Shown here: one piece after another, positions 18,560 through 51,650 of the stretch | Layout: each line of letters starts with the position of its first letter | Position numbering within the stretch: position 1 is the stretch's first letter | NCBI GenBank assembly: GCA_010093605.1 | Contig: MU004182.1 | Span: 1,583,032 to 1,647,031 of the forward strand | DNA length: 64,000 bases | Source: Lophium mytilinum | Taxonomy: Eukaryota | Direction: 5' to 3' | Position numbers and translations under genes: made by a program | The notes under the pieces: generated by a model | Databases searched by the model: none | What the model was told of the DNA's origin: nothing | What the model saw: only the letters and a program-made list of their open reading frames with translations

Positions 18560-18640
18560 TAAGGCTTAAGTATTAGCGCTGGCGGATAATCTAAGGCTTA
18601 AGTATTAGCACTAGCAGATAATCTATAGCTTATATATTAG
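18560..18640. repeat. 32-bp direct repeats containing GGCTTAAGTATTAG, downstream of the transposase
   Basis: aaggcttaagtattagc(g/a)ct(g/a)gc(g/a)gataatct occurs twice, plus a partial third copy. Confidence 0.8.
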
Positions 18641-25676: not shown

Positions 25677-26255
25677 GACGACGCTGTTGTGGCCCACTAT
25701 ATATTTGCGGACGTAATGCCTTGCAACACGGTCTTGGGTCCGGGAGGCTTTCTGGATGGTGGGTCGAGTGCCCGATCAAGAAACAACAAGTGCTTTTGCT
25801 GTGGCTTGGGTTCGACAGCTCCTTCTGCAAGTTGTCCTGTAAGAAGACGGGAGGGCGGGAGGCTCGTCGCTTTATCTGAGCATCAGAGGGTGCGAGGCGG
25901 AGTAAGTGATTTTCGTGGCGCAGCAGCGGAGCGTCTCCAATGAACGATTGGCTGTCTGCAGGTATCCATACCTAAGGTTCACAACAACGATGATCCGAAG
26001 CGACATGATAAGGATATATTCTTGAGCAGTGACACTATATGGCCTCTTCAACATCGACTTCCAAAGAATGGGCTAAGCCGAATCTGGTTGCATAGACAAA
26101 ACCCCCATATTTCCAAGTCTTTCTATCAAGAACTGAAGCTTCTGCCTTCTCAGCTATTGGGAACGTGAACCATCTGGGCAAATAACGACCTTTGTGTTGA
26201 GGCTCGATCACTATACTAAGTAGCATAAGTTGAACGTCCTTGAAGGACGTCCTAT

Positions 26256-30426: not shown

Positions 30427-32647
30427 ATGGCCAGGATGTTGGGCAGATCGAAGTCGCTCCGATTAAAGAGCTCACAGAAAGACCTGCGCCAACAGGAAGC
30501 CGACGCGCCCACGCCACTCCCCACTGCCCGCGACGACGAGCCTCGGAGTGATCATCACCTGGACAGTTTGAGGACTGCTGCACTTACCACCCATCCAGCC
30601 AAGCGTGCAGAGTCGCCCGAGCAGGTGCAACGCCCTAGAACAGCCAGCGCCCCAGGAGACCGCGGCAAGCCTTCCCAGTTCCACAAAAAGGCTGCCCCCG
30701 TCGCCATCACTTCGGATGAGGCTACCTTTAGCTTTGCTCTCCCCTCGCCCACGACCGTCCTCTACGCCGCAGAGGTTCATGAGGACGACATGATTGGGAT
30801 GGCTTTGGGCAGTCCGACGACACCGGCCCGCTGGAATCAACCTGTGCAGCCTACCGACTATGTGACACGGCCTGGACTCAATCGAACCTACACCCATATT
30901 GCGTACGACCCTTCATTCCAGAGTTCAGATTATGAAGACGGTGTTGGCAAGAACTCTACGACGGATTCCGATCCCGGTCAAGATGTTACGAAGCCAAAAG
31001 TCAGCCGGTGGAAGTCGATCTTTGGAAGAAAGAACACCGCCCCTCAGCCTTTCTATCAGTTACAGCAGGCTCCAGCGCCTTCGTCCCAAGTACACAGTCA
31101 CAACGAGGTAGTTCAACACAGGCAGCGGTCTTCATCTCGCGCGAGTACACGAGAAGCTCTTACAAAACCAGCGCCTACTTCAGCCCACGAAATCCGCGAA
31201 GCGCGCAAGAAGCACAAGGCTGCAAAGAAGGCGGCCGCGGATGAAGCAAAAGAAGCGAAAAATCTCAAGATCGATTCTGGGAAATCTCTCACGTCACGAT
31301 ACGAGAACATGAAGGCTGAAGTCAGCCCCAAACCACCCCCGAAAGACGATTGGCGTTTTCAAGTTCCCAGAGTCACAGTTTCTAGTGGCTCCCAAACTAC
31401 TTCGCCCCGGACGCCGGGCTCGGGACCTCTGCTCGATGTCGACATTCCGAACGTTGAAATGGAACGTTACAGTGTGATGTTCGGAAGTCTGCTACGGCCA
31501 GACCGTTCTTCTTCCCTCCTCGTAAGACGACAGGCTGATCCAGGGAAGTTGAAACCTCTAACGGAGCTCTCCAAGAAGGTGTGTGATCGTCCGCAATTTT
31601 CTTACTGGCTGAATTTCCCACTAATCGGCAGAGTAGAAGGACTACATTGACGGCAACAACGGGCTACTGAAACCGACTCGGCGGGCCACCTCGCCTTCGC
31701 CTGCCAAATCACCAACCTTCTCCTTGTCCTTGTTCCCCCCAGCAGCCAGTAAACGTGACCAAAACCCGCCCTCGCCGCGGGTTACGTCGCTGCACCGGCC
31801 CCGGCCCCTAGCGCGGTCAAACACGGCACCAAGTATCTCGCCTAGTCGGCAGACGTTCGCAGACCCAGATGCCGCTGACGACGCGGGGTCGAAGTCACAG
31901 AAGAACGCTCCTCGCAGTAGCGCCGCCCCTCGCATGCACCAGGTAGCTGAAGCCGAGGCGGACTCAGCAACGCAGCTTCTGACTCCCACACCATCTACTC
32001 GGGCCTCGTTTGATTCGCAGGAAACAGCAATGGTGCCGCTCGTCGTAGACCCCAATTCTTGGGACCCCCGCCTTGAGGAGCCTGAGTGGGAAATCCTCTC
32101 GAAGCCTACCGAAGCCGCGTCTCAGGTACAGCAGCGGCAGGGACTGGGGAAGTTGCAGGAGGAATCACAGTCATCGCCTCCCCACAATCACCAACAGGAA
32201 AAGCCGCGTCGACCATCTCAGTCACAGCCTAAATCCCCTCCGCAAGCTCAGGCTCGGCACTTGACAAAGCAAACGCAGAGATCTACCGAGGACCACCGAC
32301 TTCCCCCCACATCGGCGAGGTCCCAGTCAAGAGACAGCCCACGAATTCAAGTCCACCACTCCCCGTGGGACAGTCCCCGCTCTCACGCTTCGAACTCGCC
32401 AAAAGAACGTCCCTCCCCTAAACACACCCAATCAGAACGGGACGTCCGAGGGAAAGGCCCCACCGTGGGTCTTGCGCGGCAGGTCAGTGTCTCCCGCGCC
32501 ACAGGGCCGAAACTACTGAAACCGATGGTCGTGTCACCGCCGGGACTCTCGGAGAAGCTGGTCGACCGCAAGCCGCTGACGCCGACGCTGGTGGAGTTGA
32601 AGAACTCGGGAAGGAAGAGTCAGAGGGTTGTTCTTGAAGATGCGTGA
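30427..32647 (+). CDS. Hypothetical Ser/Pro-rich fungal protein
   Basis: Two long ORFs joined in frame by intron 31579-31636. Conserved-looking islands IGMALGSP and LLDVDIPNVEMERYSVMFGSLL. Confidence 0.8.
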
Positions 32648-34375: not shown

Positions 34376-36954
34376 ATGTCCGGACTCGAGGTAAGTCGCC
34401 CGGGAAGCCTGTAAGATCGCCGGCATTTTGTCTGAGCGGATCATAACGCTCGGGTCCAGCCTGTCGCGCTGAGGACCTGCCTTCGTGGGAGCCTTTTATC
34501 CTGGGAATCGCCTCGTGGCCTTCCCGTATCCTTCCTCTTATTCCAACGTCTCCCTTGCCCCTCCAAACTGCGACTTGATGGGATACTCTGCTAACATGCG
34601 CTCGGGAGAACCTCAGGTCGTTGGCGCCGTCGCTGCGGTCGTCTCAGCCTTCCATGGCGGGGCCGAGTTGGTCACTCAGATCAAGAAGAAGCATAAGAAG
34701 AGGAAGGGCGAGCAGGCATACAAGGAGAAGCAGTTGCAGGAGTCGCTGCAGAGTGGCGAGGTCCAGATCGAGACGCGATACGGGGCCGATTGCCGCGAGA
34801 TGGGTGAATATGTGAAGCGAGGCGACGGTAAGACGGAACTTTATTTTTACCAGCAACACTTCACTCGCTAACACCTTCACAGTCATTGCCCGAGACCGGC
34901 TCCTACATATTGCCGTGGCCATTCAGGCCGAGATTATCAGAAGCCTTCAACTCGCTGTCAAGTACGAGAACGCCATTCTCGACCTCACCGTCCTGCACGA
35001 GACGTCCATCATGAACCGGAAGGATACTTTGGTCACTTTGGACGAGCTGAAGCAGCGGATATTGATAACATTTCCACCGGAGCGAATGTCCCCGCCTGCT
35101 CTGGATTCACCTGGTAGACAGACTTTCCAGTCCACGGAGAGCCTTGCTGCAAGCATGGTCCCGGACAACTACCTACCGCCTGGTATCACCATCCCGGATC
35201 AGCACGAGTCAGACAGCAAATCCAGCTTGAGTAGGTTTCTCTCCACGCGGAGGACCAGCGGGAGGAACTCGGTGCAACACTCGCCTTCGAATTCCTTGTC
35301 AGGCGCCAACTTCACTTCCGGATATCAGTTCCTGGGACCCCCAATCCAAGAAAGCAGCATGCCTGGCCACGACTCCCACCCTGTGAATCACGCGGACATC
35401 TACCAGGACATCAACGACACACTCACTTCTTTCCAAGGTCTTCATATTGACAATACGCGCCGTGATACACTCGGTCAGCTCCAAGGTCTCCCACAACCAC
35501 AACGACCACCACCACAGTTTGACCCCGCAGACCTCTCAAATCACCCGGCCTTCACAAACCCACCAATCAACTTGGCAGACATATCTAGTCATCCGGCTTT
35601 TGCTAAGTCACGCAACATGGGAAACAACCCCGGTCAACGTGTTGACTCTCCAAGCTTGCTGAACCGCAATCCTTCTACGTCTACTGCGTCGGTCTACTCA
35701 GATTACAATGCTGAACCTACACGCAAGAACGTGGGTACCACCTTCAGTCAACCCTTCGACGCGAACTCATTCGGCCGCAACGACTCCACTTCCAGCCGCT
35801 CAGCGTATTCGGACCGTATCCCAGCATCTGTTCACAGCCATAGTTCACATGCGTCCGTCGGAACGACTGGATCCTCAAATTCTGCTTTCTCGCCCAGAAC
35901 CTCAGCTACCAGTGCAGCTACACCAACCACTCCTGTCACCCCAGATGTCAGCCAGGGGCACTTCACGTACTCGCTATTCCCTCAGGTATCGCGCAAAGGC
36001 CCTAGCCCGCCTCCTCTGATGGCTCCCCCTCCCCCTCCTCCAGCAAGGGCTCTACCATCAATACCTGCTCAGCCAGTTCCTCCCGGTTCCAACCCTCCGC
36101 TGAGCCCGAGTGCGCTGAAGATCAACAATCCCTTCAGCCCGAGTACTCCACCAGCATCTAGCACTCCTACCAGCCCGAGCGCGCTCAGCATTAGTGCCCC
36201 CTTTAGTCCGAATGCAAACACGCGTGGTCCCAACACACTGAGTACCAGTAGCTCTGTCAGCAATGTTCCGAGCTATAGTTCCTCCACGCGTCCTTCGCTA
36301 ATCTCTAATATGTCGAACCTTACACGTACCACCACTAGTAGCTCAAACACATCGACTCCCTCGACCATCAATGCTGCCAACATGCTGACTGGCCGGCCTT
36401 GCAAGCAGAACAATTACTGGGGCTTCTGCAAAGGCTCATGGGCTGTGCGCGAAGAGCTCAAGAAGGGTCTTTCGGTGCAAACCCGCCCGGAGGGCCTGTA
36501 CAACAACGTCTCGGTCTGGCAGTGCAAGCACTGCCTCTTCCAGGGCGACACGTTCCATAAGACGATCCCGGGCAAAAAGAAGAAAGAAATCGTGATCGAT
36601 CCTAATATCCACACCTCCGCTGTGGGCATCAAGTACCGTTTCATCTTTCTCGCCAAGTCACACGTCAAGCGTAAGAGCTCGACGGTGAACTGGGACGTGA
36701 TGATCTCGGGGTCGAAGGGCGGGTGCAGCTACGGATGTGTGATCTGCTGCGCCGAAGGAAAGAGCACGAGCATCTTCGGGAATGTCAACACCCTCATGAA
36801 CCACATCTTCAACACCCATGCGAAGGGGATGACCGAGGAGGTGCAGCGGAGCACGAAATGTGTTGTTGGACGAGAGCCGGAGCCGGGAGAGCAGTGGGAT
36901 GTGTGTATCCCGTTCAAGCGATTTCTCGGAGACGGCACTGCTGTGGCAGAGTAG
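34376..36954 (+). CDS. Hypothetical protein: N-terminal helical domain, Ser/Pro-rich linker, C-terminal Cys/His-rich domain
   Basis: Exons 34376-34390, 34617-34827 and 34883-36954. Begins MSGLEVVGAVAAVVSAF. C-terminal CKQNNYWGFCKG, WQCKHC, FLAKSHV and YGCVICC...H...H. Confidence 0.85.
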
Positions 36955-38318
36955 ATCACGAGATCACGAACGATCGTAGAGTTCATCTTGGTCGATCGGG
37001 TAACGCGGCATCCGTATTTTTGGGCGCCTCATGTCACCTCACATTATCCTGATTTTCATTTCCCTTTTCTTTCCATGTTATCATGTCATCATATTACAGC
37101 ACTCGGTCTTTTTGGGTTAGTTTGCAGACTTGATACCCTCCCTGGTTGGCGATATCACGGAATGGGGAGTTACCAAGGGTGTTTGCTTTTGCAACAGTCT
37201 TTCTCTTTTGGCTAAGGAAGAGAGAGCAGAGATGTAAGAGCGCTGTCGCTTATTGGGGTATGTTTACTTTACGTAAGACATGATCAACACAGCGGCTCGA
37301 GTTCAAAATGTTATTTCAAGGCTGAACAAATCTGCCCCGAAGTGCATGAGGAGGATGCAAGATCAAGACTAAGTCACGTGGCTTATTCAAAGGCCGCTAG
37401 AGCCAAAGCTTTGGGCGACCAAGGTTAGAGCTCCACTACTTTATCTCAACGACGGTGGGGCTGGCTAGACCCTCTTGCTATACCAACTAAATGTCATGGC
37501 CCAGAATAGACGTTGAGCTCTTGATAATGCCATTGGCCTGAGGTGTGGATCGTGACGACTCTGATCCCCCGCAGCATGTGAGAGACTCGCCTTCAATCTA
37601 GAACCTGATACTAACACAATGAGGTCCTAGAGAGCTTATGTAACCAATAGAAACTTCCCAAGCCCTTCGACTAGTAAGTCTACGCTACATCATTCTTCCA
37701 GACCTCTAATCCCCCACAGGGAGATTGCGACTCTCATACCCATCTAGCGGTCTAAATAAGCTTTCGAGATTGGGCACTGTCTATGGCTGCGTTTCAGAAG
37801 TCTAGATGTTGACGACATGGAGACGGATCGGGAATCTGAACGCGATCGTGAGGCTAGAGAACAAATTAGAGGGCGTATGAGCGGCTTCGTGCACTCTCTT
37901 CGTTGCGCTCACAATCCGAGTCACCCGACCTACGTGATGTGGGTGCTTATCATGGGAGCTGCTCCCAGCGCGCTGCGGTTAAGACAGTTCGATTCGTCTC
38001 TCGAGTGTGTCGTGCCTGCTTGTATCACCCATCGAGCTGGATAGGAGCTAAACAACAACGCCACCTCCTCTCTTCTTTTCTCATTGCAGATCAAACCTCA
38101 CTTCTGCAATTCGCTCCCTACTTTCATTTCCTTGTCATTCCTATACCCATTGGTCCTGGCCACCTCTTCTACTGTCTTGCGACGACAGATTCTACTATTG
38201 ACACCGCATCCATACGATACCTGCCGCCTACCTATATTTTTATCCGCGACGCCTTCAATTGAATACCTTCTCCACCAACCGCGTAGGGCGCCAGCACTTC
38301 CTTGCAAATACGCTTGTA

Positions 38319-40442
38319 ATGGATGTGTTGCAGCGCTTTTTGCCCGCTACTACGCCTACCAATCCCCCTCTCCTGGATCGGCGACCAACGCCTGTTCCAC
38401 CAAACATCGAGAGCATCGCCAGTCCACAAAGCCGAGAGGGCTTCTCTGAAGACGCAGAGAGGGATGAAAATGCAACTTCACTCGATGTCTTCCTGGAAAG
38501 CAAACCCAGTAGCCCCGCCGTCGTCCCGCCCACCATTGTTGTGATCGAGGACAGCGATGCGAACAATAACTCCTCGTCATCGGATACGGGCATTCTAGAC
38601 TACCGGGTAGACGAAGCCGATGCCAGCGACCGTACCATTCGACATCACAATCGCCGGACCCTAGTCCCCCGCACGCTTCCCAGAGACGTTCCTCGACGGA
38701 AAGCTGGCAGGCAACGCCTACGTCGCTCATCTAGCAACTCTGGCGTCGAAGCCATCTCGAAATATAAGCAGAAGGCCGATGAAGTCAAGACCCTCGTGGA
38801 ACAAGTTCACGAACTTCGCGTATCACCCTCTGGGACACCTCCACATAGGCCCTGGAAGCTGAGACGAGTCAGTACGGCCCCTGGACTGCGCGAAAAACAT
38901 ATGACGGATGGTAATAAGCACGGTGAGCCCCGATTCATCTGGATCCCAAGCACGTCCTCAACAGCGGACACTTCGTGTCACACTACGAACGTTACTCCGT
39001 CCGAAAAGGGTATAAGGGACGATTGCAGCACACCGTTGCGAGCATACTTGGAACGACCGTCAGATAGCAGAACGAGCAGCCCATCTAGAATGCTTTACAA
39101 ACCAAATTTGAAGAAAAAAGCGATAGGTAGCCCGCCCTCAGGTCTTACATGCAACGAAACCATACCCGGACATCGACGAACGAAAGCTGTCGACTTCGAT
39201 AGTCCGACATCTCTATTCACATCTTCGGTCACAAAGTTGAAGACGTGGATAGCAGAAAAAGACAGAACAGTGACCACTGATTCTGGAATCGAGATAGCTG
39301 AGGCGAGGACCGTATCGTTCATGAAACCGCGATCAAAGAGCAAAGCCGCAGACTCAGCTGTCACGCGTACCGATGTCCACGTAGTTGCTATATCGGCTCC
39401 AGACGGCGACGCGACACCTCGCAAACGCTCCGCAACGCCGACAAAGCAGATCGTCCAAACAGGCACCGGAGGCTACGGGGTAGTTTGGGACGACGCTCCC
39501 AATTCTTCTCCAGACAACGAATCCCACCGTCGCGGATCGAGTGCCGGTCAAGCTCTCGAAGCTGCCGGCTCCACCAGTCTGGAACGAGTAGACACGAAGC
39601 TCTCCGACTGGAGCTGGCGCAACGTAAACCCATTTGAAAAAGCTGCGAGACGAGACCGGAAGCCTTCACAGTTCGTCCCGAATATCGTCGTTTTCCCAGA
39701 TGATTCCTACGAAGACACCGTCTCGACCGTCGCGTCCGGCCGCCACATTTACCCCCGAACCACCAACTCCTCCACGCTCGACTCCTCGGAGGACACAGAT
39801 GCATTCGTCGCACCCCCAAACAGCCTCCAATCCTCCTCCTTCCTTCTCCCCCGCCACGACCCGCCTCCACCCCCCAACAGCGCCTCCTCCTCCGGCGGCC
39901 TCCTCCCACGCCGCTCTCCACTCGCTGGCCGCAACAGCGAGAGCCGCGCCACCGACACCACCGACACTTCTGCCACCTCTCTCTCCTCTTCGTCCGCGTC
40001 CTCGGCACTCCACGGGGCTGTCCTGCCTCCACCCCCTTCTCCATCTACCACCGATATCCCTTCCTGTGCCTCCGACCGCCCCAGAATGAAGAAAGACTCC
40101 CTCTTCCCCTCCGCCTCGGACGAGCACCTCCACATCACGACCACACATCGGCTGTCGCATATCGATAACCTGCATTTCCGCACGCATAAGGATAGTCTTG
40201 CTGTGGCGCGCGCACGGTGGGAGCGGAAGTACTCGAATGCGATGGGGATGGTGGGGAGGGGGGGCGTGGATCCGGAGAGGTTTGCGAGGAGGTGTAGTGT
40301 GGCGATTGCGCGGAAGCGGATGAAGGGGAGGCGGGAGAAGGGGAAGGGGAGGTTGGAGAGTTTGAGTGAAGGCGGCGGAGAGGTGGGTTTGGCGAGGGTG
40401 GGAGAGGTGGGGAGGGGGAGGGTTATTAGGATTGTGGAGTAG
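38319..40442 (+). CDS. Hypothetical low-complexity protein
   Basis: Single ORF of about 700 codons from the first ATG (MDVLQRFLP...). No recognisable domain. Confidence 0.7.
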   Translation: MDVLQRFLPATTPTNPPLLDRRPTPVPPNIESIASPQSREGFSEDAERDENATSLDVFLESKPSSPAVVPPTIVVIEDSDANNNSSSSDTGILDYRVDEADASDRTIRHHNRRTLVPRTLPRDVPRRKAGRQRLRRSSSNSGVEAISKYKQKADEVKTLVEQVHELRVSPSGTPPHRPWKLRRVSTAPGLREKHMTDGNKHGEPRFIWIPSTSSTADTSCHTTNVTPSEKGIRDDCSTPLRAYLERPSDSRTSSPSRMLYKPNLKKKAIGSPPSGLTCNETIPGHRRTKAVDFDSPTSLFTSSVTKLKTWIAEKDRTVTTDSGIEIAEARTVSFMKPRSKSKAADSAVTRTDVHVVAISAPDGDATPRKRSATPTKQIVQTGTGGYGVVWDDAPNSSPDNESHRRGSSAGQALEAAGSTSLERVDTKLSDWSWRNVNPFEKAARRDRKPSQFVPNIVVFPDDSYEDTVSTVASGRHIYPRTTNSSTLDSSEDTDAFVAPPNSLQSSSFLLPRHDPPPPPNSASSSGGLLPRRSPLAGRNSESRATDTTDTSATSLSSSSASSALHGAVLPPPPSPSTTDIPSCASDRPRMKKDSLFPSASDEHLHITTTHRLSHIDNLHFRTHKDSLAVARARWERKYSNAMGMVGRGGVDPERFARRCSVAIARKRMKGRREKGKGRLESLSEGGGEVGLARVGEVGRGRVIRIVE

Positions 40443-42012
40443 GGGTAAAGTACTGAGGGGTGGACTAGGGGTTCTGGCGCAAATAAGATAAGTAGAGTTT
40501 GGAATTGAAGTTGAGTTCTAAGACTTGTGATTTGTCGTATGTCATGGAGCTGTCACGTGTTATACCTTCTTAGTAGTAGGCCTGCGGTATAAAATCTCCC
40601 TCTCCTTCTCTTAATCTTACCTTTTTTGTTAAGGGCGAGTCGGACAGCTTTTCAAGCAAGCGACGAGGGAAGTACCCAGGGAGGCGGATCTGGCTGGCTG
40701 GTGACTCAAACACGACTTATGCGTGAACGATGACTGGGTTTTCTTGGAGCTTAGAAAAAGGCACGACTAGACTTAGATGGTGTCGTGGAGTTGGTGGAGA
40801 GCAGATTGATATGACGGTTGACGGATGGAGGTTGTGGTGGATGTGGGCATGGTGATGGTGTGCGGGAGGTTGAGGTGGTGATGATTGGTAAGTTTTTGAG
40901 GCGGTGTTGAGGATTGGTAGGCTCCGTGGAGGATGGTGGGGAGAGATTTGGGGGTTGAAGAAGATACTTAATGCAGGTGATAGTATCTGCACATTGAAGG
41001 AAGGCGACATTATGTACATGGAGCGACTTTATTTGCCACTAGCTTTGAGCGTTATAGGCGATTGCTGGAATCCAACAACCTACCTATGTCGCGAAAAGAA
41101 GTCTAGATAGCTAAGAAGAGGACTTGGGGGTCTTCGAACCCGAGTTTCGCGACCTATCGATTGCTATCTCATTTGTTTAATTCTCTCATGTAATATTGCA
41201 TCAGATTTCCCATATCTTCATCAGCCACTCTCCCAAGATCTTTCACTTTCACGTTCCATTCTATAGGAAACGCTTTTGCGAAGCGTATACGACTTGCTGT
41301 GCTCATAGGCTGGCTCTCCGTTGATGGGGGCAGAACTCCAATCGGCTGATATACCATCCCATTCTCCAACGGCAGCGGCGAAGGAGTCTGGAGCGTTTTA
41401 TAGTATACGATAGCGTGCTCTTCAGGTCGACATCCCGTTTTTGTCGTACCTCGATTCCCATAGGTAGAAATTGGACTACAATCTCATGAGTGCGGAACAG
41501 TCTAATGAATTTTGGACGTACCATGTATAGCAGAATCCCATCTTTTCAGCTACAACGACGAACCTCCTTATTTGAGTGATTACCTTGGCGCCATACTTCA
41601 CAATCGAGACGTTATCTGGAAATGTTCCTGGCGCTCTCGGAGTTTCTCCCATGAGTTCAGTAAAGAGCATTGAGAAAACCTGATTGACTCTGTTAGCTGT
41701 GAAACGCTGGTGGACGACTGCTATACTCTTCCGCGTTTGAAGAATCCTCTGGCATCCTGCCGAACGAGATAGGCTATGGAGTTTACCACGTTAGCGCTTC
41801 ACAGAGACAGTTGTGGAGTGTGATGCACGTTACATACCGGGATCTAGCTCTTCATACGCTCCAATAACTCCTTTCATTTGGTTATACACAGGTCTGTCCT
41901 GCTCTTTCGTCTTTACCATGTCACGACTTGACACTGAAGACGCTTCAAAGGGTGCAGACTGTTTGTATCCTCTCGAATATTCAAGGACAGGAGATAATTC
42001 GAACAGCGTGCT

Positions 42013-45000
42013 TGTGGAATTCTTGATATACGGTTGATATTCGGATGTCGTGCACGTGATGTATAGATCTACTGTAGGAACGCTTTCCTACATAGATCTA
42101 GTGTAATTAAGGCCTGCACGGGCCTCTCTAATATGTATATAGCCTAGCTAGATTCCTATATAGAATTAATATTAATTATCCTCTAAATTCTTATATTATA
42201 TAATTAGAAATATTATATCTAGTAGCTTAGTTATAGTTCTAGCCGCCTCTAAGGCCTCCTTAGAGGGCTATTAGGTCCTTAAACTTAATAGCGTAAAGCT
42301 AGCTAAGGCTATATTTTTATAATTAACCCTTAGTAATAATAGAAGACATTAGCTTCTATAATTAGTAGAATTTTTAGATTATTATAATAATACTAAGCCG
42401 TGTTAACAGTTTCTAAAAATTAACCTAATTAGTAATTAATAATAACTACTAATAATAGCCCCTAATTAGCATTAGGCCGGCGTTATAGTATAACTACCTA
42501 TCGCGAACATCCTTATAAAAATTAAACGGTATAGGTCTAAAGAGCCCTTAGCTAGAATATTACTGCGGGATTTTCCTATCCCTTTTAATACTTCTACGCA
42601 ACTAACTACGCGTTCTATTAGCTGCTAAAGCAAGATTAATAGCAGGATAGCGAGAAGAATAATATTATAGCTTAATAGAGCCTAATAATTATATAGTAAT
42701 TAGAAATCCTTATAAGTTAATTATAAGAAGAAGGCGGAGAAGTCCTTTTAAGAATTCTTCCTCTCTAATAGGATATTAAAAAGCATTTAAGAAAGAAACT
42801 TAATATTACTATCTTAGCACCCTTTTCTTACTCTTTACTTTAATTATATTGCAGTTATTAATTCTTTTCTACTCTTTCTTATCCTTAGATATTCTATAAC
42901 CCTTAGCTTCCTTTTATATCTAGTAATAGATATTATTATTCTAATAGATTACCTTCTAACCTTTAAGAACTCTTCTAAAGGCTCTTTTAGTTTAGCACTA
43001 TATCTTATAATCTATCTAATCTAATATTAGCCTTACAGGCTAAGCAGGCCGCTGCCCTAGAACCTATTAAGCTACTAGTTTAAGGTCCTCTAATTATTTA
43101 CAGTAGTGCCCTAGCCTATAATCTAGGGCTTACCTATTAAGGGCTATTATTTACGCCTTCTTTAGATAGCTATTAACGCTTCTAAGCCCCTATAATAGAG
43201 TATATAATAGATTACTAGGGACTAGAACTCTTTAGTTCTATATTAGCTTCTTCTATATAATAGTAGCAGGCTACTATACTAGGGCAGCTATAAGCTATAG
43301 TCCCTAATTACTATGCCCGCGTTAAGAATATATTAGATAACCCCTAGCAGTAGCCTACTTCTTAGAGTGCTACTAACTTCTAGGGTTTATTATCTAACGC
43401 TTTCTTAGATTATCTAATACTAGACTATAATAAGCCTATATTAGAATAAACTATATAAGAGCTCTAATAAGCCTTTAAGAAAATATTAGCTATAAGAGAA
43501 CCTTATCTAATAGCGCTACCTAAAGTTCTTATAAGGACTCCCGCTATATAGTTAGGTAAAGTTAATAATAATGCGTACCCTATCTAGATAGTTTAAATGC
43601 GCAACTTTATTACTATATAAGCGGACGCCTATTAATAGGTTTACTAGTAGATGCTAGAAACTTAAAAGATTTAGCTAGCCGGCAGCTATACAGCTAGAAC
43701 TGTGGCCGTTTAATAGAACTAAGATATTTAATAGCACTACTAAGGCAATACTAAGTTTACTATATTAGATTAGTTCTTTACTACCTTTAGCCGCCGCTAT
43801 AAGAGCGTAGATACACCGGAGCAACGCTAACACCGCTTTAATAAAATAGTGTAGATAACTAGTGCTTATTAGTTCTTTAATAAGCTTATTAGGGCTACTT
43901 ATATATACCCTCTTAATATAGCTCTATTTAATCTTAAAGTACGTTAATATGCCCGCGTAGGTTTAAAACCTAGCCTTAAGTTCTATATTAATGCCTAAGC
44001 GTAGGCCCCTTCTAATTTTAATAAATAGATAGCGTAGGTTGCTACTACTAATAAGCATTAGATCTCCTAGTATAAGAGAATAAGAGACTATTAGGGCCGC
44101 CTTAATACTATCTCTAGGGCTAATAAAGAATTAGATAATAATTACTTTTAAGGAACTAACGTTAATTCTAATAAATATAAATATCTAGATACTAAAGATA
44201 ACGCTAAACTTAATGCCTTTAAAGGTAGAAATACTACCAGATCTTAAGAACGCGGTTAAGGCTATAGCGGACGCAGTAAAGGTACTACCTAATAGAATAC
44301 TAATACGCGTAAGTACTATAATTATAGCAAGAAGGGCTATATTAAACGTAACTATACTTAGCTAGCTAAAAAGCTATTAGAAAACTAGGAGGGTTAGTAG
44401 CCTTAAAGCAACTAACTAACCTAAAAGATAAGACTCCTACTTTTTATAAACTTATAATAGAAAAGAATTAGCCGCCCTTTAATAATCCTTCTAACTAAAT
44501 TATTATTAAATTAATAGAAGAAAGAATCTACTACCTTAACTCCCTAGGTAAATGTCTTTTAGAATATAAGGGAACTTTAGAACTATCTAACTATTAGAAA
44601 AGAACTACCTTTTTAATTAACTGTAGCGCTAATTCCGTCTATATATTATTAAAGCATGCTTAATATTAGCTAAAGAATGTTAAAATAATAGCCCCTAAGG
44701 CAGTTAAACTTCTCTTAGGTGCAACTATAATTAGTATAAAAGCCTTAGAGATTCTATTTAAGATCTATATACTATTAGGTACTCTAACTATATATATTCT
44801 AGACCTTAAAGAGTATTAATGCATTCTTAGTATAATCTAGCTATAGTAATACTAAGCTATTATTAACTTCTTTACTAATTCTATTACCTTGTAAATATAG
44901 GTTAGCCGCAACCTAAAGATTAAACTAGTAGCTTATTAGCTTAATGCATTAAGCCCTATTATAGACCTTAGTCTTTCTAAACTAGAATACTAGGGTTTTA

Positions 45001-48000
45001 TTAATGCAATATTCTATTAGAAGTATAAGAGGCTCTTAGTAGATAAGCTTAATTCCGCTTACCTTTATATTGTAAAAGCTTCTAATAAACTAACGCTAGA
45101 TTAGGTACTATAACCCGGCACTAATCCGCCATTAGAAGATAAGAATTTATTACCCCTAATTAATTATATTACTACTTCTATGCAAGAGAAGTTCTAAGAG
45201 CTTCTTAAAGAGTATAAACCTTATTTCTATAATATCCTTCCTAATATTCTACCGCCTAAGCATAGATATAACTATCTAATTAATACTAGAGATGTAAAGC
45301 TAGTAAATAATATAGTATACCGCCTCTTATATTATTAAATAGAAGAATAGACCTAATAGATCTATAAGCTACTAGAATAGGGCCTTATCTAAGAGTCTAT
45401 TAGTGCCTAGGGATCTCTAGTTCTTTTTATTCTAAAGCTAAATAGCAAGTGGCGAATATGCATTAACTATAGAGTACTTAATCTAGTAACCTAGAAGAAT
45501 ATCTACCCCCTACTACGCATTAATAACTACCTATAGTTATTTAGGAAGGCTAGGTTCTTTACTAAGATTAATTTAACCTCTAGATATTACTAGCTATGCA
45601 TTTATTAATTAGACGTCTATAAGACTGCTTTTAACATAATTAAAGGGAAATTTAAATTTCTAGTTATACCTTTTAGTCTCTATAACGCTCCTGCTACCTT
45701 TTAAGCTATTATAAATAATACCTTACAACTATATCTATATTAATTTATACTTATCTATATAGACAATATTATAGTATTTTTAGAAATATTAGAAGAGTAT
45801 CTTAACCACCTCTAATTATTATTTAAAGCTCTTAGAAAGAAATAACTATTTACTAAAACTAATAAGTACTTAATTACTTAAGAAACTATTAAGTTCTATA
45901 GCTATATAGTTTCTTATAGAACTATAAAACTAATAACTAATAAACTAGACNNNNNNNNNNNNNNNNNNNNNNNNNNNNNNNNNNNNNNNNNNNNNNNNNN
46001 NNNNNNNNNNNNNNNNNNNNNNNNNNNNNNNNNNNNNNNNNNNNNNNNNNNNNNNNNNNNNNNNNNNNNNNNNNNNNNNNNNNNNNNNNNNNNNNNNNNN
46101 NNNNNNNNNNNNNNNNNNNNNNNNNNNNNNNNNNNNNNNNNNNNNNNNNNNNNNNNNNNNNNNNNNNNNNNNNNNNNNNNNNNNNNNNNNNNNNNNNNNN
46201 NNNNNNNNNNNNNNNNNNNNNNNNNNNNNNNNNNNNNNNNNNNNNNNNNNNNNNNNNNNNNNNNNNNNNNNNNNNNNNNNNNNNNNNNNNNNNNNNNNNN
46301 NNNNNNNNNNNNNNNNNNNNNNNNNNNNNNNNNNNTAACTAATTACTACTTATTATAATACCTATAAACTACTAAGAAAGCCTTACTAAGGCTTACTTAA
46401 TAGATTAAAAATTTCTAGTAGTATAACCCTATAATATAGTATTACTTAAAAGCCCTTATAATAGTACCGGACGCAATTAGTAGGCGCCCTAATTTTACCT
46501 AAGAATACCTTACAGCCCTCTCTAAGTATAAAGATCCTAATATAGAGTATATTAAAGATTTAAAGAAGTTCCTTATAACGGGCCTTAAGTCTACTCTCTC
46601 TAAACAGCTATTAGAGGCTAAATTAAAATAACACCGGCTTTACTGCTAAAGAATCTATCTGTCCCTATATTAGAACTTTATAATTCTAAAAGAAGAACTA
46701 TGCTATTACTTCTATAAACCTAATAGTAATCTAAATCTATATACTCTTAAGAATACTATACTATATATTACACCTTTCTATTATTAACAGGTTCTTAATA
46801 GAACCTACTAGCTAGGCTACTTTATATACCGCGGCATGCAGAAGGCCCTATAAGTATATAGCTAGTAGCTAATAATAAGTTATAATACTAATAAATACAC
46901 TTATAAGTATACCTTATGCTAGCTAGTATAGAAGAGAAAGATTATTTATAAACTAACGTTTTATTAGGTTAAGAATTAAGATCTATTTAATAAATAGGGC
47001 ATTAATTTAATTAGTAGATTACTATAATTAATCTATAGAAATTACTAGATTATTACTACTATTAATTACGCTATAGGTTAGCCTAAAGCTGCTACGCTTT
47101 CTAATACTTAAGCTAAGACTATAGTAATATTTATCTATAAAAGAATCTACTACTAGTATAGACCCCTAGCGGCGTTTACTTCTAATAATAGTTTAAACTT
47201 TCTTTCTAAAGTTATTATAGTACTATAAAAGCTTATTAAGACCTGCTATAATATTATAACGCTATATTACTCTTAGGCAAATAGTAAGGTAGAGAGGCTT
47301 AATAGAGTCTTAGGGAATATTCTTATAAAGCTAATAATTAATTAAGATATAGCTATATAGAATACCTAGTTACTAGCTATAGTATATATAATATGTACTT
47401 AGAATACCTTCTATAGCTATACTCCCTACTACCTTATATATAGTAGACGTCCTTAAGTACCTAATAATACTTTAGTACCGGCTCTTAATAAGACTGCAGA
47501 TAAAGAAGCTAAATTAGAGTATTATTTAGCCCGCATTAGGAAAGTTTAATACATGCGCGCACTAGCAGAGGATTAGCTACTAAAGAAAGTAATTATAGCA
47601 GGCCTATAGAATCTATAACCTCTATCTAAGAAGCATCTAGTTACTTAATAGAAGATTAGTTTCTAGGTACTCCTTTAAAATAAGGTTAAGAGGAAATTTA
47701 GAGCAAAATAGTTTAGTCTATTTAAAATTATTACTGCTTATTCTTTTAGTACCTATATGCTTTAAACACCTACTAATTAAGTATTAAAGAACCTTGTTTA
47801 CGGCAATAGGTTAGTAAATACACGCATTAATACTTATATAAAGTTTTAGAACTAAGAAGACTCTAAATATAACTTAGAATATTCTAATAATATATTAGAA
47901 GATAACTAAGTACTTTAGAACTAAGAGGATTTTAATAATACTAATAAAGAGCGTGCTACACGTTAAGAAGAAGTTAAACCTAGTAATAATGCTGTCGCGA

Positions 48001-51000
48001 ATATATTAGATGTAGACAACGCTAATAGAAAGCTATAGTCTAAGTTTACTATAATCTCTAAAGTAGAATAGAATTAGAAGATTACTAAGTATTAATTAAA
48101 GCAGCAGTATAAGGGCGCAGAGCTCTTCTAGAAAGAAGAGAAGAACGCTTAGAAACTGCCTAAACTAAAGCTATATTAAATACTAAGAGATTTTAAAGAG
48201 AGAGTTCTTAAGAGAGACTAACGGGCTACTAAGAAAAAGGAACCTAAAAAGGGTTAATTAACTATTATACTAGTATAGGTTACTAGCTTTATAGTTATAT
48301 AATATAAAGATGCAGGCAAGACTACTATAAATACCTATTAGAAAGTTTATATGCATAAGCTAGAGATAAGTTAAGATAAGCTTAACGTTCTATAGGGAAC
48401 TAGTAATTACGCAGCACCTATAGAATAACCTAATAATGCATTAGTGCTAGCTATAGATACTAATAATAGGGAACCATTAGAAATAGCTTAAGATAGTAAT
48501 AGGACACCTAAGAGTGTAAATACTACTATCTAATTACCTAATACTGCGCACTAAGATAATAATAAGTATAATAGGGATACTATTATCGTGCGGCTAAGGG
48601 GTAATGCTGTTATTTAAACTAATAATACTGCGGAGCTGCAGGATAAAGAGATTAACTTAAGAGCTAAGAATACTAAAATGCGCATAAATAATAAGTTCTT
48701 AGATAAGAATACTAGCTCTAATATATAATTAGAGAGCTCCTCTAGCAGTAATACTAGTATAATAGATATTAAAGATAATAAGAATACTAGCAGCAATTAC
48801 AAGTTAGATTTAGATAGTAATTTTAATGCACCTATAATACAACCTACCTAAGCTCTTAATATAAAGTTGCGCGGAAGAAAGCGCAAGAGAGCTTAAATAG
48901 CACTTCTATCCTAAGCTAATAGAGTGTTAGAAGAACTCTATATATTTATTACCTAGATTTCCTTTATTAATTTAAATTTAAGCGTTTAATTCTTTATTAT
49001 TACTTATTTAGCTATATTTTATCTTTAGAGAATTAAAAAGATAATAAATTTAAGAACCTATATTAGAGATTAACTAAGCTAAGCTTATACTTCTATTATA
49101 CTTAACCCTTCTTATATCTAGAAGGGGAGGGAAAATTAATGCTTTTCTATTAATACTAGCTAAGCTAATATACTCTTAGTCCTTCTAGGTAGCTATTCTA
49201 CTACTAGGACTTCTTCTACTAGGACTTCTATAGCTACTACTACTACTAGAATAGCTATTATTATTCTTCTAAGGCTGTTTTAGAGGCGCGCTCTAAGTTA
49301 ATATATTTTAGCTATGCTTGCTAGCCCTATTCTTCTAGAGAATAGTATTTAGAGAGCCTATTTAATACTAAGTAGAGTTTAAAGGGGTCTCTCTAGTAGA
49401 GTTATTATTATTACTAATAGATAACTAAGATAAGCGGCGGCTTAATAGTATATTAGGAGTAGGCTCTTAAAAGCGCTGTAGAGAACCTAAAGAAGAATAA
49501 TAAGAGGTTAAAGAAGTTAGAAAAGTTAAAGGCTAAGTAGAAGAGGTTAGAGAGTATTACCTTAGACCTTAAGTGCTAGAACCTAAAGTAGCTGCATTTT
49601 CTAAATCTAATGCAGCTGCAGATAATTACTAGAAGCTAGATCTTAAACTAGAAGCCTAAGTAGAAGCACTACTAGAGCCCTATAGATAATATTAAGCTAT
49701 TAGAGATTTAGAAGTATAAGAAATACCTAGATTACGTAGTAGTATAGCAGTCTTCCTTTAAATTAACTCTATTAGTAGCTGCATAGCTAAGGCTAAGCGC
49801 ACTATATTTTTAGCCAGGTTCTTAAGAGATTCTTGGTCGCAAAGAGAAGATATAAACTTAGTAATATTATAGCAACCTTATTAAATGCAAGCCCTAGTAG
49901 TCTTCTAATAAGCTATTAGAGTCTACCCTTCTATAATAGGTATTAGCTAAGTTCTAAGATACTCTAAAAGTAAAGCTAAACTTACCTTAAAATAAATAAG
50001 TCCCCTTACTACCCTGCTAATAATATTCTATATAGAATTCTTAGTAGAGAGAAGAACTATCTAGATTATAAGCCTAAATATATTTACTAAACTAATAGCC
50101 TCCCGAGAATATTCTTAAGTAGTGGTTGCAGGCCCTAAAGGTAGAAGAAGCCCTAGAATTCTTACTATAATCTACTCTTAAGCCTAAATACTATTTAAGA
50201 AGCCCTATAAAGCGTAAATTATAGCTATAGTTCTTATTTAAAATTAGTTTATTATTTCTAATATTACTAAGAAACTCTTAAAGTAGTATATTTCTCTAAG
50301 CTCTACTACTACCTTTAAACTTTAGGGGGTATTTAGTATAGTTTAGATAATTAGAAGCTATAGCGTAGCGTTAGAAGGCTTAAGAAAGTAGAATAGAGTT
50401 ATTAAAGGCTATTAGCTATATATAGCATAGATTATAGAACCTCTAGACTATTAGAAGGTTAATAATTAATATAAGTATAATAGTAACTAGATCTTATTAG
50501 CTTTATTAAGAGAAAGAGCTAAACTATTATTAGAAACTTACTATAGGCCTATAAGGCTTTATAAGCCAAGATGCCTAAGGATTTATAAGAGCGTAGAACC
50601 TTATAACTATAGCTAGAGTCTAAAGAATTATTGCCTCTATTATCTCCACCTCTTCTATAGAGCAAGCTAGAGGCTATAGAACCTAGCTAAGTATTAAGCA
50701 ACGTTATAACGCTAACTTAGAGTAAGAAAAAGCAGCCTAGAAGCTAAGAGAGAGAGAGTTCTAATAAAGAAATTAATAAAGAAAGATAATAGTAATAAGA
50801 AGAGAAGCTGTAAGAGTCTTTAATAAACCTTTAAAGTTAAGAGAAGCTTAAACCTTAAAGGAGAAAGTTAAGTATAGAAGAAAGAGTATAAGAGCATTAA
50901 AAAGGCCTTATATATACTCTAGATTCTTAAATCTATTACTTCTAGATTACTACTTACCGCTCTATAACGTACTAATAGCTTCTTAGACCTATATAAAATT

Positions 51001-51650
51001 ATAAGCTTCTTACTAGATTATAAGGGACTTTATAAGATTTCTAATAAGCCTATTATTAGCTATTATAGCTCTAATTGCATATTAAAACCTAATGCGCGCT
51101 AGCATACTAATATTTATATTACTGTATAATTCCCTCTATTATAAACACTTTATAATCTCTTCTAATTCTTTCTTACTATCTAGCTATTAAATATTCTAAT
51201 ACCTCTATTATCCCCTACTAATATAGTAGTAGACCTCTAAAGAATTCTAAACCCCTCTTAGATAATATTACCGCAATATTACTATCTACTAATATACTAT
51301 TTATAGTATTATATACCCCTAGAAGCTTTAAAGCTTCTAAAGAAGCTAATAGCCTAATATGCTAATAACGCACAGTATAAAGTAGTAAGCGCGATATACT
51401 ATTATAAATATAATTTAATAGTAAATTAGATCTAAAAGGGGAGGATATAGAATTCTTAATATATAGTTAATATTTAGATATTATATATATAATATATAGA
51501 TCTACTATAGGAACGCTTTCCTATATAGATCTAGTGTAATTAAGGCCTGCACGGGCCTCTCCAACGTGTATATAGCCTAGCTAGATTCCTACATAGAATT
51601 GACATCGATTGTCCTCTAAATTCTTACATCACGTGATCGGAAATATTACA
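42013..51650 (+). mobile_element. Full-length RIP-degenerate Ty3/Gypsy LTR retrotransposon
   Basis: 205-bp LTRs at 42013-42217 and 51446-51650 (TG...CA at the outer ends). 4-bp TSD TGCT. PPT AAAAGGGGAGGA at 51434-51445. RT (KWR.CI.YR.LN...YPL.RI at ~45445-45525) precedes integrase (~46950-47450). Confidence 0.95.
45951..46335. other. Assembly gap (385 N) inside the Gypsy pol region
   Basis: Run of N characters. Confidence 1.

What the first reader, a model, noticed from the sequence alone, without database searches (positions are those of the whole stretch)
41169..41770. DUF6590-like domain looks like a MazF/PemK endoribonuclease toxin fold
Seen: the spliced C-terminus reads ...ITQIRRFVVVAEKMGFCYTCPISTYG...SRIRFAKAFPIEWNVKVKDLGRVADEDMGNLM. 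Known (from memory): E. coli MazF has RPAVVLS...GMCLCVPCTT and GVALADQVKSIAWRARGATKKGTVAPEELQLI, with catalytic Arg and Thr residues. Inference: the R-x-hydrophobic strand, the G.C..P..T motif, and the I.W....K.G.V..E helix all fall in the same order. That would make this fungal domain of unknown function a MazF-like RNase effector, possibly used in regulated cell death or antiviral defence.
Basis: partly seen in the sequence, partly recalled or inferred. Interest (0 to 1): 0.85.

Follow-up and report, generated by a model that had tools for sequence, protein, structure and literature searches.

The report
Fungal DUF6590 domain has MazF fold
A small, expressed fungal gene of unknown function is predicted to fold and pair up like the bacterial RNA-cutting toxin MazF, which suggests that a large fungal protein family descends from, or copies, a toxin type thought to be confined to bacteria.

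Summary
A four-exon gene on the minus strand (41169-41919) encodes a 197-aa protein. It is identical to an annotated hypothetical protein of Lophium mytilinum. A public transcript contig joins all three introns exactly. Pfam calls residues 37-188 DUF6590 (154 bits, cut-off 27).

The fold claim is strongly supported. An AlphaFold2 model (pLDDT 89.5) was compared with 48,161 solved chains. All 11 chains with Z of 8 or more are MazF, Kid/PemK or CcdB. The best Z is 9.8, with 95 of 104 residues aligned at 2.4 A. Unrelated folds score 5.5 or less. A homodimer is predicted at score 0.70, best control 0.00. 29 of 151 relatives carry two tandem domains.

Sequence-level kinship is only twilight. 0 of 54 members hit Pfam PemK_toxin. 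hhalign probabilities are 6-35%.

The Arg (R81, 72 of 83) and Thr (T100, 73 of 83) are conserved. Their equivalence to the MazF catalytic pair is not shown.

RNase activity, toxicity and any role in cell death or defence remain inference. No paper in the searched library mentions DUF6590.

The parts
41838..41919 (-). CDS exon 1 (ATG 41919-41917; residues 1-27 plus the first base of codon 28)
   Evidence: Reading. It is the first ATG in the transcript contig that reaches 42042. The product equals P0002.
41774..41837 (-). Intron 1, 64 nt, GT..AG
   Evidence: The contig of run X1 joins 41773 to 41838, 'skips 64', ends CT..AC on the + strand.
41727..41773 (-). CDS exon 2 (residues 28-43, ...LDPAYLVRQDARGFFKRGR)
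41680..41726 (-). Intron 2, 47 nt, GT..AG
   Evidence: Contig joint 'skips 47', with the cut shifted by 2 as the tool notes. Leaving it unspliced would give an in-frame TAG.
41522..41679 (-). CDS exon 3 (residues 44-95 plus two bases of codon 96). It holds strand 1, the long strand1-strand2 loop, and R81 R82 (41568-41563).
   Evidence: Pfam DUF6590, E 1.4e-7, profile positions 9-59..
41476..41521 (-). Intron 3, 46 nt, GTACGT..TAG
   Evidence: Contig joint 'skips 46'; sequence.
41169..41475 (-). CDS exon 4 (residues 96-197 and stop TGA 41171-41169). It holds P97-I98-S99-T100-Y101 (41474-41460), K108, H116, E133, S157, R158, N170, K172, G177 and the C-terminal helix.
   Evidence: Pfam DUF6590, E 1.4e-26, profile positions 62-151..
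41199..41747 (-). DUF6590 domain (residues 37-188, across introns 2 and 3), predicted MazF/CcdB-type barrel plus C-terminal helix
   Evidence: 154 bits, cut-off 27; model; fold matches.
40900..42042 (-). Minimum extent of the transcript (3' UTR at least 40900-41168; 5' UTR 41920-42042)
   Evidence: Records 1 and 2 of run X1. 40900 was the edge of the stretch laid, so the 3' end may lie further on.

Best explanation
The gene encodes an intracellular, 197-aa single-domain protein of the fungal DUF6590 family.

Shown by prediction and comparison:
- The domain is a member, or a very close structural copy, of the CcdB/MazF (PemK/Kid) superfamily. It has an SH3-like barrel closed by a C-terminal helix.
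- It has three elaborations. The loop between strands 1 and 2 is long (residues 53-74). The loop after strand 3 is longer and highly conserved (T100-H116). There is a roughly 35-residue insert at 121-156.
- It is predicted to form a symmetric homodimer through strand 1, the strand1-strand2 loop, the 89-92 hairpin and residues 162-172.

Inferred:
- The dimer binds single-stranded RNA in the groove at the dimer interface, as MazF does.
- It cleaves that RNA without a metal. It would use R81 at the start of strand 2 and the T100/Y101 turn after strand 3. A family-specific polar set would assist: K108, H116, E133, K138, S157, R158, N170 and K172.
- No antitoxin gene exists. Control must therefore come from expression, from the enlarged loop, or from the conserved N-terminal segment that packs on the domain.

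This copy differs from its relatives in two ways. It has Tyr where 72 of 83 relatives have Lys138. It also lacks the N-terminal Trp/Tyr motif that its closest relative carries.
For: - Gene and transcript.
- Family: PF20233 at 154 bits against a cut-off of 27.
- Model quality: pLDDT 89.5, pTM 0.82, and 150 of 197 residues at 90 or more. The Atlas's own model has pTM 0.80.
- Fold, exhaustive search: of 48,161 chains, 11 have Z>=8, and all 11 are MazF, Kid, PemK or CcdB. Examples are 5xe2 (Z 9.8, 95 of 104 residues, 2.4 A), 7ewi (9.7), 4mzm (9.2), CcdB 1vub (8.5) and Kid 1m1f (8.2). The type III toxin CptN follows at 7.0, and unrelated Tudor/SH3 folds score 5.5 or less.
- Fold, second look: E. 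coli MazF 1ub4 scores Z 9.2 with 96 of 103 residues aligned.
- Foldseek: 30 of the 31 listed rows are MazF-type, probability 0.97-1.00, TM by target 0.49-0.66.
- Dimer: ipSAE 0.70 in 3 of 3 runs against a best control of 0.00. The runs agree in at least 85% of contacts and pLDDT is 86-87. That mark was reached by 21 of 30 microbial homodimers and 0 of 23 monomers in the tool's calibration. For eukaryotes it was reached by 17 of 29 and 0 of 30.
- Tandem forms: 29 of 151 relatives have two DUF6590 domains in one chain. The N-terminal copy keeps 12 conserved, mostly polar, positions in 290 of 313 cells, the C-terminal copy in 241 of 317. This is the pattern expected of a pseudo-dimer that keeps one working site.
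- Conservation over 83 full domains: R81 72, R82 70, T100 73 (plus 6 Ser), Y101 82, K108 77, H116 79, E133 74, S157 76, R158 74, N170 79, K172 76, G177 83.
- Collinear weak profile matches: KMGFCYTCPISTY against MazF 42-54 (P 4e-4, probability 35%), and residues 156-192 against MazF 70-106 (P 6e-3). The extended alignments put G42 opposite G10, R81 opposite R29, P97 opposite P50 and G177 opposite G92.
- From the literature: Arg25 and Thr48 of B. subtilis MazF are essential and widely conserved (PMC10893535; abstract and passages of sections 2.4 and 3 read). The strand1-strand2 loops of MazF lie at the dimer interface and cross between subunits in MazF-mt1 (PMC11394972; abstract and passages read). 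This matches the predicted interface here.
Against: - Sequence methods do not confirm membership. 0 of 54 members hit Pfam PemK_toxin at E<=10. No PDB chain is hit by phmmer or by the family profile at E<=10. There are no NCBIfam MazF/PemK or PADLOC hits. hhalign probabilities are only 6-35%, with 13-36 confidently aligned columns.
- Where the P-x-T motif aligns, MazF T52 faces the variable S99 (Ser or Thr in 40 of 83). The conserved T100 faces T53.
- Most of the strongly conserved polar residues (H116, E133, K138, R158, N170, K172) have no counterpart in MazF. The chemistry or the ligand may therefore differ.
- I could not superpose coordinates, so no conserved residue has been placed in the MazF substrate groove.
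- CcdB, which is not a nuclease, scores within about 1 Z of the best MazF.
- A constitutively transcribed MazF-type RNase with no antitoxin would be expected to be harmful. No antitoxin-like ORF was found in the flanks: 8 small ORFs gave no credible Pfam hit.
- This copy has lost Lys138.
- A shared fold does not show function. The dimer pass may reflect the model's memory of solved MazF dimers (caveat stated).
Confidence: 0.5

Rival explanations
1. The fold is the same but there is no nuclease. DUF6590 would be a MazF/CcdB-shaped dimeric binding module for RNA, a peptide or another protein. The conserved polar residues would then serve recognition rather than catalysis, and the protein would not be toxic.
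For: - The gene is transcribed with no antitoxin nearby.
- The family is large, with 1214 cluster representatives at E<=1e-3. Its members often carry long disordered Gln/Asn/Tyr/Pro-rich tails (alignment). That fits scaffold or granule proteins.
- SH3/Tudor-like binding barrels are the next structural neighbours, Z 4.5-5.5.
- The T52-equivalent position 99 is variable.
Against: - Near-invariance of a His, a Glu, two Arg, three Lys, an Asn and Ser/Thr residues, clustered in the loops that form the MazF active site, is more typical of an enzyme.
- The polar positions decay unevenly between the two copies of tandem proteins. This suggests a site that needs only one intact copy per dimer.
Confidence: 0.3
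2. It is an enzyme on the MazF scaffold but with a different substrate or chemistry. A His116/Glu133 acid-base pair could act on a nucleotide, a modified RNA end, DNA or a protein. On this reading 'MazF-like RNase' would be right about shape and wrong about reaction.
For: - H116 (79 of 83), E133 (74 of 83; the other 9 are gaps) and R158 (74 of 83) are the best-conserved polar residues, and they are absent from MazF.
- The loop after strand 3 and the 121-156 insert are new elements.
- One relative is fused to a protein kinase domain (1 of 25 long relatives scanned).
Against: No known member of the CcdB/MazF superfamily has such an activity (my recollection, not tested here). R81 and the P-x-x-T turn are retained, as in MazF.
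Confidence: 0.12
3. It is a CcdB-like poison of a type II topoisomerase rather than an RNase.
For: CcdB chains score Z 8.5-8.8, within about 1 of the best MazF rows, which the tool treats as tied.
Against: - Only 4 of the 50 entries listed are CcdB (ranks 44, 47 and 49 among them). The other 46, all ranked higher, are MazF or PemK.
- Both local profile matches are to MazF motifs.
- The last residues of the domain, which in CcdB contact gyrase (recalled), are not conserved here: positions 192-196 are variable or gapped.
Confidence: 0.04
4. The resemblance comes only from the predictors. The real fold would differ, and the motif order would be chance.
For: No experimental structure exists. Both models come from neural predictors trained on the PDB. 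Sequence searches find no link. Foldseek E-values are only 1e-3 to 1.6e-2.
Against: - Two different predictors agree.
- pLDDT is at least 97 across most of residues 81-197.
- Matches cover 90% or more of the MazF chains at 2.1-2.9 A, and no unrelated fold comes within 3 Z units.
- Two independent weak profile matches are collinear with the structural match.
Confidence: 0.04

Closest known systems
MazF / PemK / Kid type II toxin endoribonucleases (Pfam PemK_toxin PF02452; e.g. PDB 5xe2, 4mzm, 4mdx, 1ub4, 1m1f)
   Same: - The same barrel plus C-terminal helix, over 95-107 aligned residues at 2.1-3.3 A, Z 8.1-9.8.
- A predicted homodimer with the strand1-strand2 loops at the interface.
- An Arg at the start of strand 2, a Pro-x-(x)-Thr turn after strand 3, and a Gly before the last strand, in the same order.
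   Different: - It is eukaryotic (fungal), spliced and monocistronic, with no antitoxin gene.
- The domain is about 170 aa instead of about 110, because of three insertions.
- It has its own conserved polar set (H116, E133, K138, R158, N170, K172).
- It is not recognised by the PemK_toxin HMM (0 of 54).
- The Thr is one position out of register.
- Activity is untested.
CcdB gyrase poison (PDB 1vub, 2vub, 4elz)
   Same: The same superfamily fold, Z 8.5-8.8 with 90-96 aligned residues, and a dimer.
   Different: It ranks below the MazF entries. The CcdB C-terminal contact residues have no conserved counterpart. The motif matches are to MazF, not to CcdB.
Type III toxins ToxN / CptN / AbiQ (PDB 4rmo, 4ato, 4glk, 7d8o)
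   Same: They are endoribonucleases on an enlarged Kid-like fold of similar size (155-168 aa). Z is 4.6-7.0.
   Different: The scores are clearly lower and the rmsd is 3.8-4.8 A. These toxins are inhibited by RNA repeats encoded next to them, and no such repeat is involved here.
Pfam DUF6590 (PF20233), a fungal family of unknown function
   Same: It is a full member: 154 bits against a cut-off of 27, profile positions 2-151 of 152.
   Different: This copy lacks the N-terminal Trp/Tyr motif and has Tyr in place of the family's Lys138.

Membership tests
Pfam DUF6590 (PF20233) | Match to the family HMM above the gathering score | tested here: met
   P0002 scores 154 bits (cut-off 27), E 3.9e-45, over residues 37-188. 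The exon pieces also match.
CcdB/MazF (PemK/Kid) structural superfamily | SH3-like barrel closed by a C-terminal helix that superposes on solved members over most of their length | tested here: met
   All 11 chains with Z>=8, out of 48,161, are members. The best is Z 9.8 with 95 of 104 residues aligned at 2.4 A, and the next unrelated fold scores 5.5. In the second look 140 of 997 chains have Z>=8. See also Foldseek. The test is on a predicted model, not a solved structure.
CcdB/MazF (PemK/Kid) structural superfamily | Homodimer as the functional unit | tested here: met
   The predicted complex of two copies scores ipSAE 0.70 in 3 of 3 runs, against a best control of 0.00. The pass may owe something to solved MazF dimers. 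29 of 151 relatives are tandem two-domain proteins. This is a prediction only.
Pfam PemK_toxin (PF02452) sequence family | Match to the family HMM | tested here: not met
   0 of 54 DUF6590 members match at E<=10. The same model finds MazF and ChpBK in E. coli K-12 and 15 loci in five other genomes.
Pfam PemK_toxin (PF02452) sequence family | Significant profile-profile similarity | tested here: inconclusive
   hhalign probabilities are 10.9%, 35.1% and 6.1%. Pairwise P values are 4e-4 to 6e-3. The matches are short (13-36 columns) but collinear.
MazF-type endoribonuclease (function) | Catalytic Arg at the end of the strand1-strand2 loop (R29 in E. coli, R25 in B. subtilis) | tested here: inconclusive
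   R81 is conserved in 72 of 83 domains. It lies opposite R29 in two extended alignments, but those columns carry no confidence. No coordinate superposition was possible.
MazF-type endoribonuclease (function) | Catalytic Thr/Ser after strand 3 (T52 in E. coli, T48 in B. subtilis) | tested here: inconclusive
   With P97 aligned to P50, T52 faces S99 (Ser or Thr in 40 of 83). The conserved T100 (T or S in 79 of 83) faces T53. A one-residue shift cannot be ruled in or out.
MazF-type endoribonuclease (function) | Sequence-specific cleavage of single-stranded RNA; growth arrest on expression | not testable with these tools
   This needs a bench assay.
Type II toxin-antitoxin module | Adjacent, co-transcribed antitoxin gene (MazE/PemI type) | tested here: not met
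   The transcript contig holds only this CDS. Eight small flanking ORFs gave no credible Pfam hit; the best was E 0.18 to an unrelated family. The neighbouring large ORFs are unrelated.

The most novel reading that the evidence does not exclude
DUF6590 would be the first large eukaryotic branch of the MazF/PemK toxin superfamily. On this reading hundreds of fungal genes encode antitoxin-free, dimeric endoribonucleases, or single-chain pseudo-dimers. Their activity would be held in check in cis, by the enlarged strand1-strand2 loop or by the conserved N-terminal segment. Fungi would use them as self-contained RNA-cleaving effectors in stress, conflict or cell-death pathways. The copy in this window would be an expressed, N-terminally shortened variant, cut off from its Trp/Tyr-motif exon by a 10-kb RIP-mutated repeat block.
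Probability: 0.3. Interest if true: 0.8.

Novelty: new variant of a known kind. Interest (0 to 1): 0.62.

Why it matters
MazF/PemK toxins are treated in the literature as a prokaryotic invention. An automated survey of toxin-antitoxin families found only Doc-like and ParE-like hits in eukaryotes (PMC2446400, passages read). [quoted passage not shown]

If a fungal family with more than 1,200 sequence clusters is a MazF-fold dimer with a conserved active-site-like surface, three things follow:
- A Pfam domain of unknown function gets a concrete, testable biochemical hypothesis.
- It raises the question of how a cell tolerates such a protein without an antitoxin.
- It offers a new set of possibly sequence-specific RNases.

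The claim is cheap to test by expression, an RNA cleavage assay and point mutants.

Tried and rejected
- Direct sequence links: phmmer and the family profile against PDB sequences gave nothing at E<=10. Pfam, NCBIfam and PADLOC scans gave no MazF/PemK hit. BLASTP of P0002 against E. coli MazF gave one non-collinear match, E 0.18.
- Global hhalign (-glob) gave a meaningless alignment.
- The window's whole genome is not held, so paralogues in this genome could not be counted. tblastn found no second DUF6590 copy in the window.
- A pattern scan of 185,579 prokaryotic genomes with the DUF6590 alignment matched 54 stretches, and none was confirmed. The method sees only two short motifs, so this is weak evidence that prokaryotes lack the family.
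- RNA runs: no listed holder is on record as RNA. The one run found is labelled 'RNA?' by guess. I treat it as transcript-derived because its contig lacks all three introns.
- No contig of that run lies on 42075-42300. I draw no conclusion from that.
- Homologues of the 246-aa ORF at 51755-52495: none at E<=1e-3 among 915 candidates.
- Earlier findings of this scan: nothing on this genome or sequence. One unrelated note concerned a phage MazF-like relic.
- Literature: 0 papers for 'DUF6590' and 0 for 'PF20233'. The searches 'PemK + Ascomycota', 'MazF-like + fungal', 'MazF / filamentous fungi / toxin-antitoxin' and 'MazF / PemK / eukaryotes / fungal genomes' found no report of a fungal MazF-fold family. 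Supplements and subscription journals were not searched.
- A role in heterokaryon incompatibility was considered because a HET-domain gene lies in the window. It is 16 kb away and nothing links the two genes, so I dropped the idea.
Full report
**What is in the sequence**

The finding lies in a gene on the minus strand. Reading searches gives four exons: 41919-41838, 41773-41727, 41679-41522 and 41475-41169. The stop TGA is at 41171-41169. The three short GT..AG introns are 64, 47 and 46 nt long.

The conceptual product is 197 aa. Searching with exon 4 returned a database protein, P0002, of exactly this length. It is 100% identical over exon 4 and is named by NCBI as a hypothetical protein of Lophium mytilinum. 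Its sequence equals my splice model residue for residue.

One public run, X1, holds a 652-nt contig that skips exactly these three introns and reaches 42042. A second contig covers 40900-41237. The run's kind is only guessed to be RNA, but an intron-less contig is what a transcript gives. So the gene is expressed and spliced as modelled. The first ATG of that transcript is the one at 41919.

The protein has no hydrophobic N-terminus, so it is presumably intracellular (read from the sequence).

**Family**

Pfam assigns residues 37-188 to DUF6590 (PF20233) at 154 bits against a cut-off of 27. The two exon pieces also match separately.

A full HMMER pass with exon 4 over 1.84 billion cluster representatives found 1214 with E<=1e-3 and 153 with E<=1e-10. 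Of ten looked up, the five with an organism name are ascomycetes: Mytilinidion (two), Parastagonospora, Lojkania and Pycnora.

No paper in the searchable library contains 'DUF6590' or 'PF20233'.

**Fold**

I aligned 54 family members (A1) and predicted the structure. The model has mean pLDDT 89.5 and pTM 0.82. Only residues 1-28 and part of 53-74 are weak. The order of elements is strand 43-52, a small strand 67-69, a long hairpin 75-89/92-99, strands 116-121, 141-144, 158-160, 165-168 and 172-179, and a C-terminal helix 181-196.

- Foldseek against the PDB listed 31 rows. Thirty are MazF-type toxins and one is CptN. E-values run from 1.1e-3 to 1.6e-2, probability 0.97-1.00, and TM by target 0.49-0.66 for the MazF rows (0.35 for CptN). 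No row reached E<=0.001.
- The search that does not depend on Foldseek aligned the model to 48,161 representative chains. Eleven have Z>=8, and all eleven belong to the CcdB/MazF/Kid superfamily. The best is 5xe2 (Z 9.8, 95 of 104 residues, 2.4 A). CcdB 1vub scores 8.5 and Kid 1m1f 8.2. The type III toxin CptN follows at 7.0, and then the list drops to Tudor/SH3-like barrels at 5.5 or less.
- A second look at Foldseek's top 997 chains gave 140 with Z>=8. The 50 entries shown are all MazF, PemK or CcdB. E. coli MazF itself (1ub4) scores Z 9.2 with 96 of 103 residues aligned at 2.4 A.
- The ESM Atlas holds its own model of this protein (pTM 0.80). That model's structural neighbours outside DUF6590 include PemK/MazF clusters at TM 0.48-0.65. 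Its best named neighbour by language-model features is a PemK_toxin cluster at 0.82, which is a lead only.

Two predictors and three comparison methods therefore agree.

**Sequence-level kinship**

This is twilight-zone.

- None of the 54 members hits Pfam PemK_toxin at E<=10.
- Neither the protein nor the family profile hits any PDB sequence.
- NCBIfam and PADLOC give nothing relevant.

I took E. coli mazF from the K-12 record. I then built two MazF profiles. The narrow one used 20 sequences and was later widened to 82. The diverse one used 14 PemK-family sequences from six genomes.

hhalign gave three results:
- KMGFCYTCPISTY against MazF KTGMCLCVPCTTQ, probability 10.9%.
- The same match at 35.1%, P 4e-4, with the wider narrow profile.
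- With the diverse profile, residues 156-192 against MazF 70-106, probability 6.1%, P 6e-3.

Both local matches are collinear with the structural match. The relaxed alignments put G42 opposite G10, R81 opposite R29, P97 opposite P50, S99 opposite T52, T100 opposite T53 and G177 opposite G92. Those extra columns carry no statistical weight.

**Arg and Thr**

Over 83 full-length domains from 74 proteins, counts out of 83 are:

| Residue | Count | Residue | Count |
|---|---|---|---|
| R81 | 72 | E133 | 74 |
| R82 | 70 | K138 | 72 |
| T100 | 73 (plus 6 Ser) | S157 | 76 |
| Y101 | 82 | R158 | 74 |
| K108 | 77 | N170 | 79 |
| H116 | 79 | K172 | 76 |
| | | G177 | 83 |

In MazF the Arg/Thr pair is essential. 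This is Arg25/Thr48 in B. subtilis and Arg29/Thr52 in the Symbiobacterium homologue (PMC10893535, abstract and passages). R29 and T52 are invariant in my 20 E. coli-type sequences.

The register is not settled, however. With the prolines aligned, the conserved T100 is one residue past T52. In addition, most of the best-conserved polar residues of DUF6590 have no MazF counterpart.

The conserved stretch T100-H116 sits in the loop after strand 3. R81 sits at the start of strand 2. These are the places where the MazF catalytic residues lie. I therefore think the functional site is in the same location but elaborated.

This copy has Tyr at 138 where 72 of 83 domains have Lys.

**Dimer**

Two copies of residues 25-197 were predicted to bind. 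The ipSAE was 0.70 in all three runs against a best control of 0.00. Contact agreement was at least 85% and pLDDT 86-87. In the tool's calibration the mark was reached by 21 of 30 microbial homodimers and 0 of 23 monomers. For eukaryotes the figures were 17 of 29 and 0 of 30. The tool warns that likeness to solved dimers can produce a pass from memory.

The symmetric interface uses 48-52, 54-56, 66-79, 89-92, 112, 162-172 and the C-terminus. This places the enlarged strand1-strand2 loops at the interface. The same is described for MazF, and especially for MazF-mt1 with its long cross-subunit loops (PMC11394972, passages).

Independently, 29 of 151 relatives carry two DUF6590 domains in tandem. 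In these, the N-terminal copy keeps twelve conserved, mostly polar, positions in 290 of 313 cells and the C-terminal copy in only 241 of 317. Examples are K138 (25/29 against 16/29), E133 (26/26 against 16/20) and K108 (25/25 against 19/26). The pooled test ignores relatedness, so the P value is not a probability. The pattern is what a single-chain pseudo-dimer with one working site would show.

**Context**

The gene abuts a 9.6-kb AT-rich block (42100-51700). That block has GC 0.29, TpA/ApT 1.76 and (CpA+TpG)/(ApC+GpT) 0.33. This is a strong RIP signature. The gene itself is not affected: its values are 0.78 and 1.15.

There is no antitoxin-like ORF in the flanks. The downstream neighbour is a 746-aa Ser/Pro-rich ORF without a Pfam match. 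A HET-domain gene, an AAA ATPase and a DUF7580 gene lie elsewhere in the window. Nothing links them to this gene.

**Verdict**

- Observation: confirmed.
- Fold interpretation: supported, at about 0.9.
- Mechanism: the most likely one is RNA binding and metal-independent cleavage at the dimer groove. I give about 0.5 to the whole statement and about 0.4 to cleavage proper. The main rival is a non-catalytic binding module on the same fold.
- Cell death or antiviral defence: pure conjecture.

I file it as a new variant of a known kind. It is a eukaryotic, antitoxin-less, insertion-bearing branch, or a structural copy, of the CcdB/MazF superfamily. It is not recognised by sequence models, and I found no report of it in the searchable literature. 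Supplements, subscription journals and Pfam clan tables were not visible to me.

Noticed in passing
window 51755-52495 (-), with 42100-51700: A 246-aa ORF begins with the Trp/Tyr motif (W-x-W...YY...W) that many DUF6590 proteins carry at their N-terminus. blastp gave 7 hits at E<=1e-3 among 152 relatives. tblastn with the N-termini of P0003 and P0007 hit 52495-52397. The ORF lies on the same strand, 10.5 kb upstream of the DUF6590 gene, across the RIP-like AT block. The closest relative, P0007 (Mytilinidion), has the motif and the domain in one 230-aa protein. The Lophium gene may therefore have been split by a repeat insertion. The rest of the ORF has no Pfam match and no homologue was found.
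   Followed up: partly
window 1-13900, 17100-21900, 42100-51700: Three AT-rich blocks (GC 0.27-0.31) have strong RIP indices: TpA/ApT 1.76-1.86 and (CpA+TpG)/(ApC+GpT) 0.13-0.33. In the gene-bearing blocks the values are about 0.75 and about 1.15-1.2. The genome alternates gene islands with RIP-degraded repeats.
   Followed up: partly
window 42013-42042: In run X1 a 1833-nt contig of depth 82 shares only these 30 bases with the gene's 5' UTR and then continues with unrelated GC-rich sequence. It could be a short repeat shared with a highly expressed locus, or a branch in the assembly graph. It is unexplained.
   Followed up: no
window 23577-25775 (-), 27124-29348 (+), 52980-54687 (+), 62568-63680 (-): Neighbouring genes by Pfam are a HET (heterokaryon incompatibility) domain gene split by an intron, a two-domain AAA ATPase, a DUF7580 protein, and a short-chain dehydrogenase. 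The large ORFs at 30232-32647, 34816-36954 and 38202-40442 have no Pfam match.
   Followed up: no
relatives P0003, P0008, P0009, P0012, P0013 and others (not in the window): About a fifth of the listed relatives (29 of 151) are tandem two-domain proteins. Their C-terminal copy has lost conserved polar residues more often than the N-terminal copy.
   Followed up: yes
relative P0093 (632 aa, Pycnora praestabilis MAG): This protein has a protein kinase domain (36-310) followed by DUF6590 (467-620). It is the only fusion to a known domain among the 25 longest relatives scanned, and it could be a gene-model artefact. Separately, P0068 in the hit list is a cupredoxin-repeat protein without DUF6590, so it is a false positive.
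   Followed up: partly
residue 138 of the product (codon 41351-41349): This copy has Tyr where 72 of 83 family domains have Lys, and its closest relative P0007 also has Lys there. It also has Leu at 132 and Thr at 123, where Gly is usual in the family (52 and 53 of 83). This may be a sign of relaxed or altered function in the shortened gene.
   Followed up: partly
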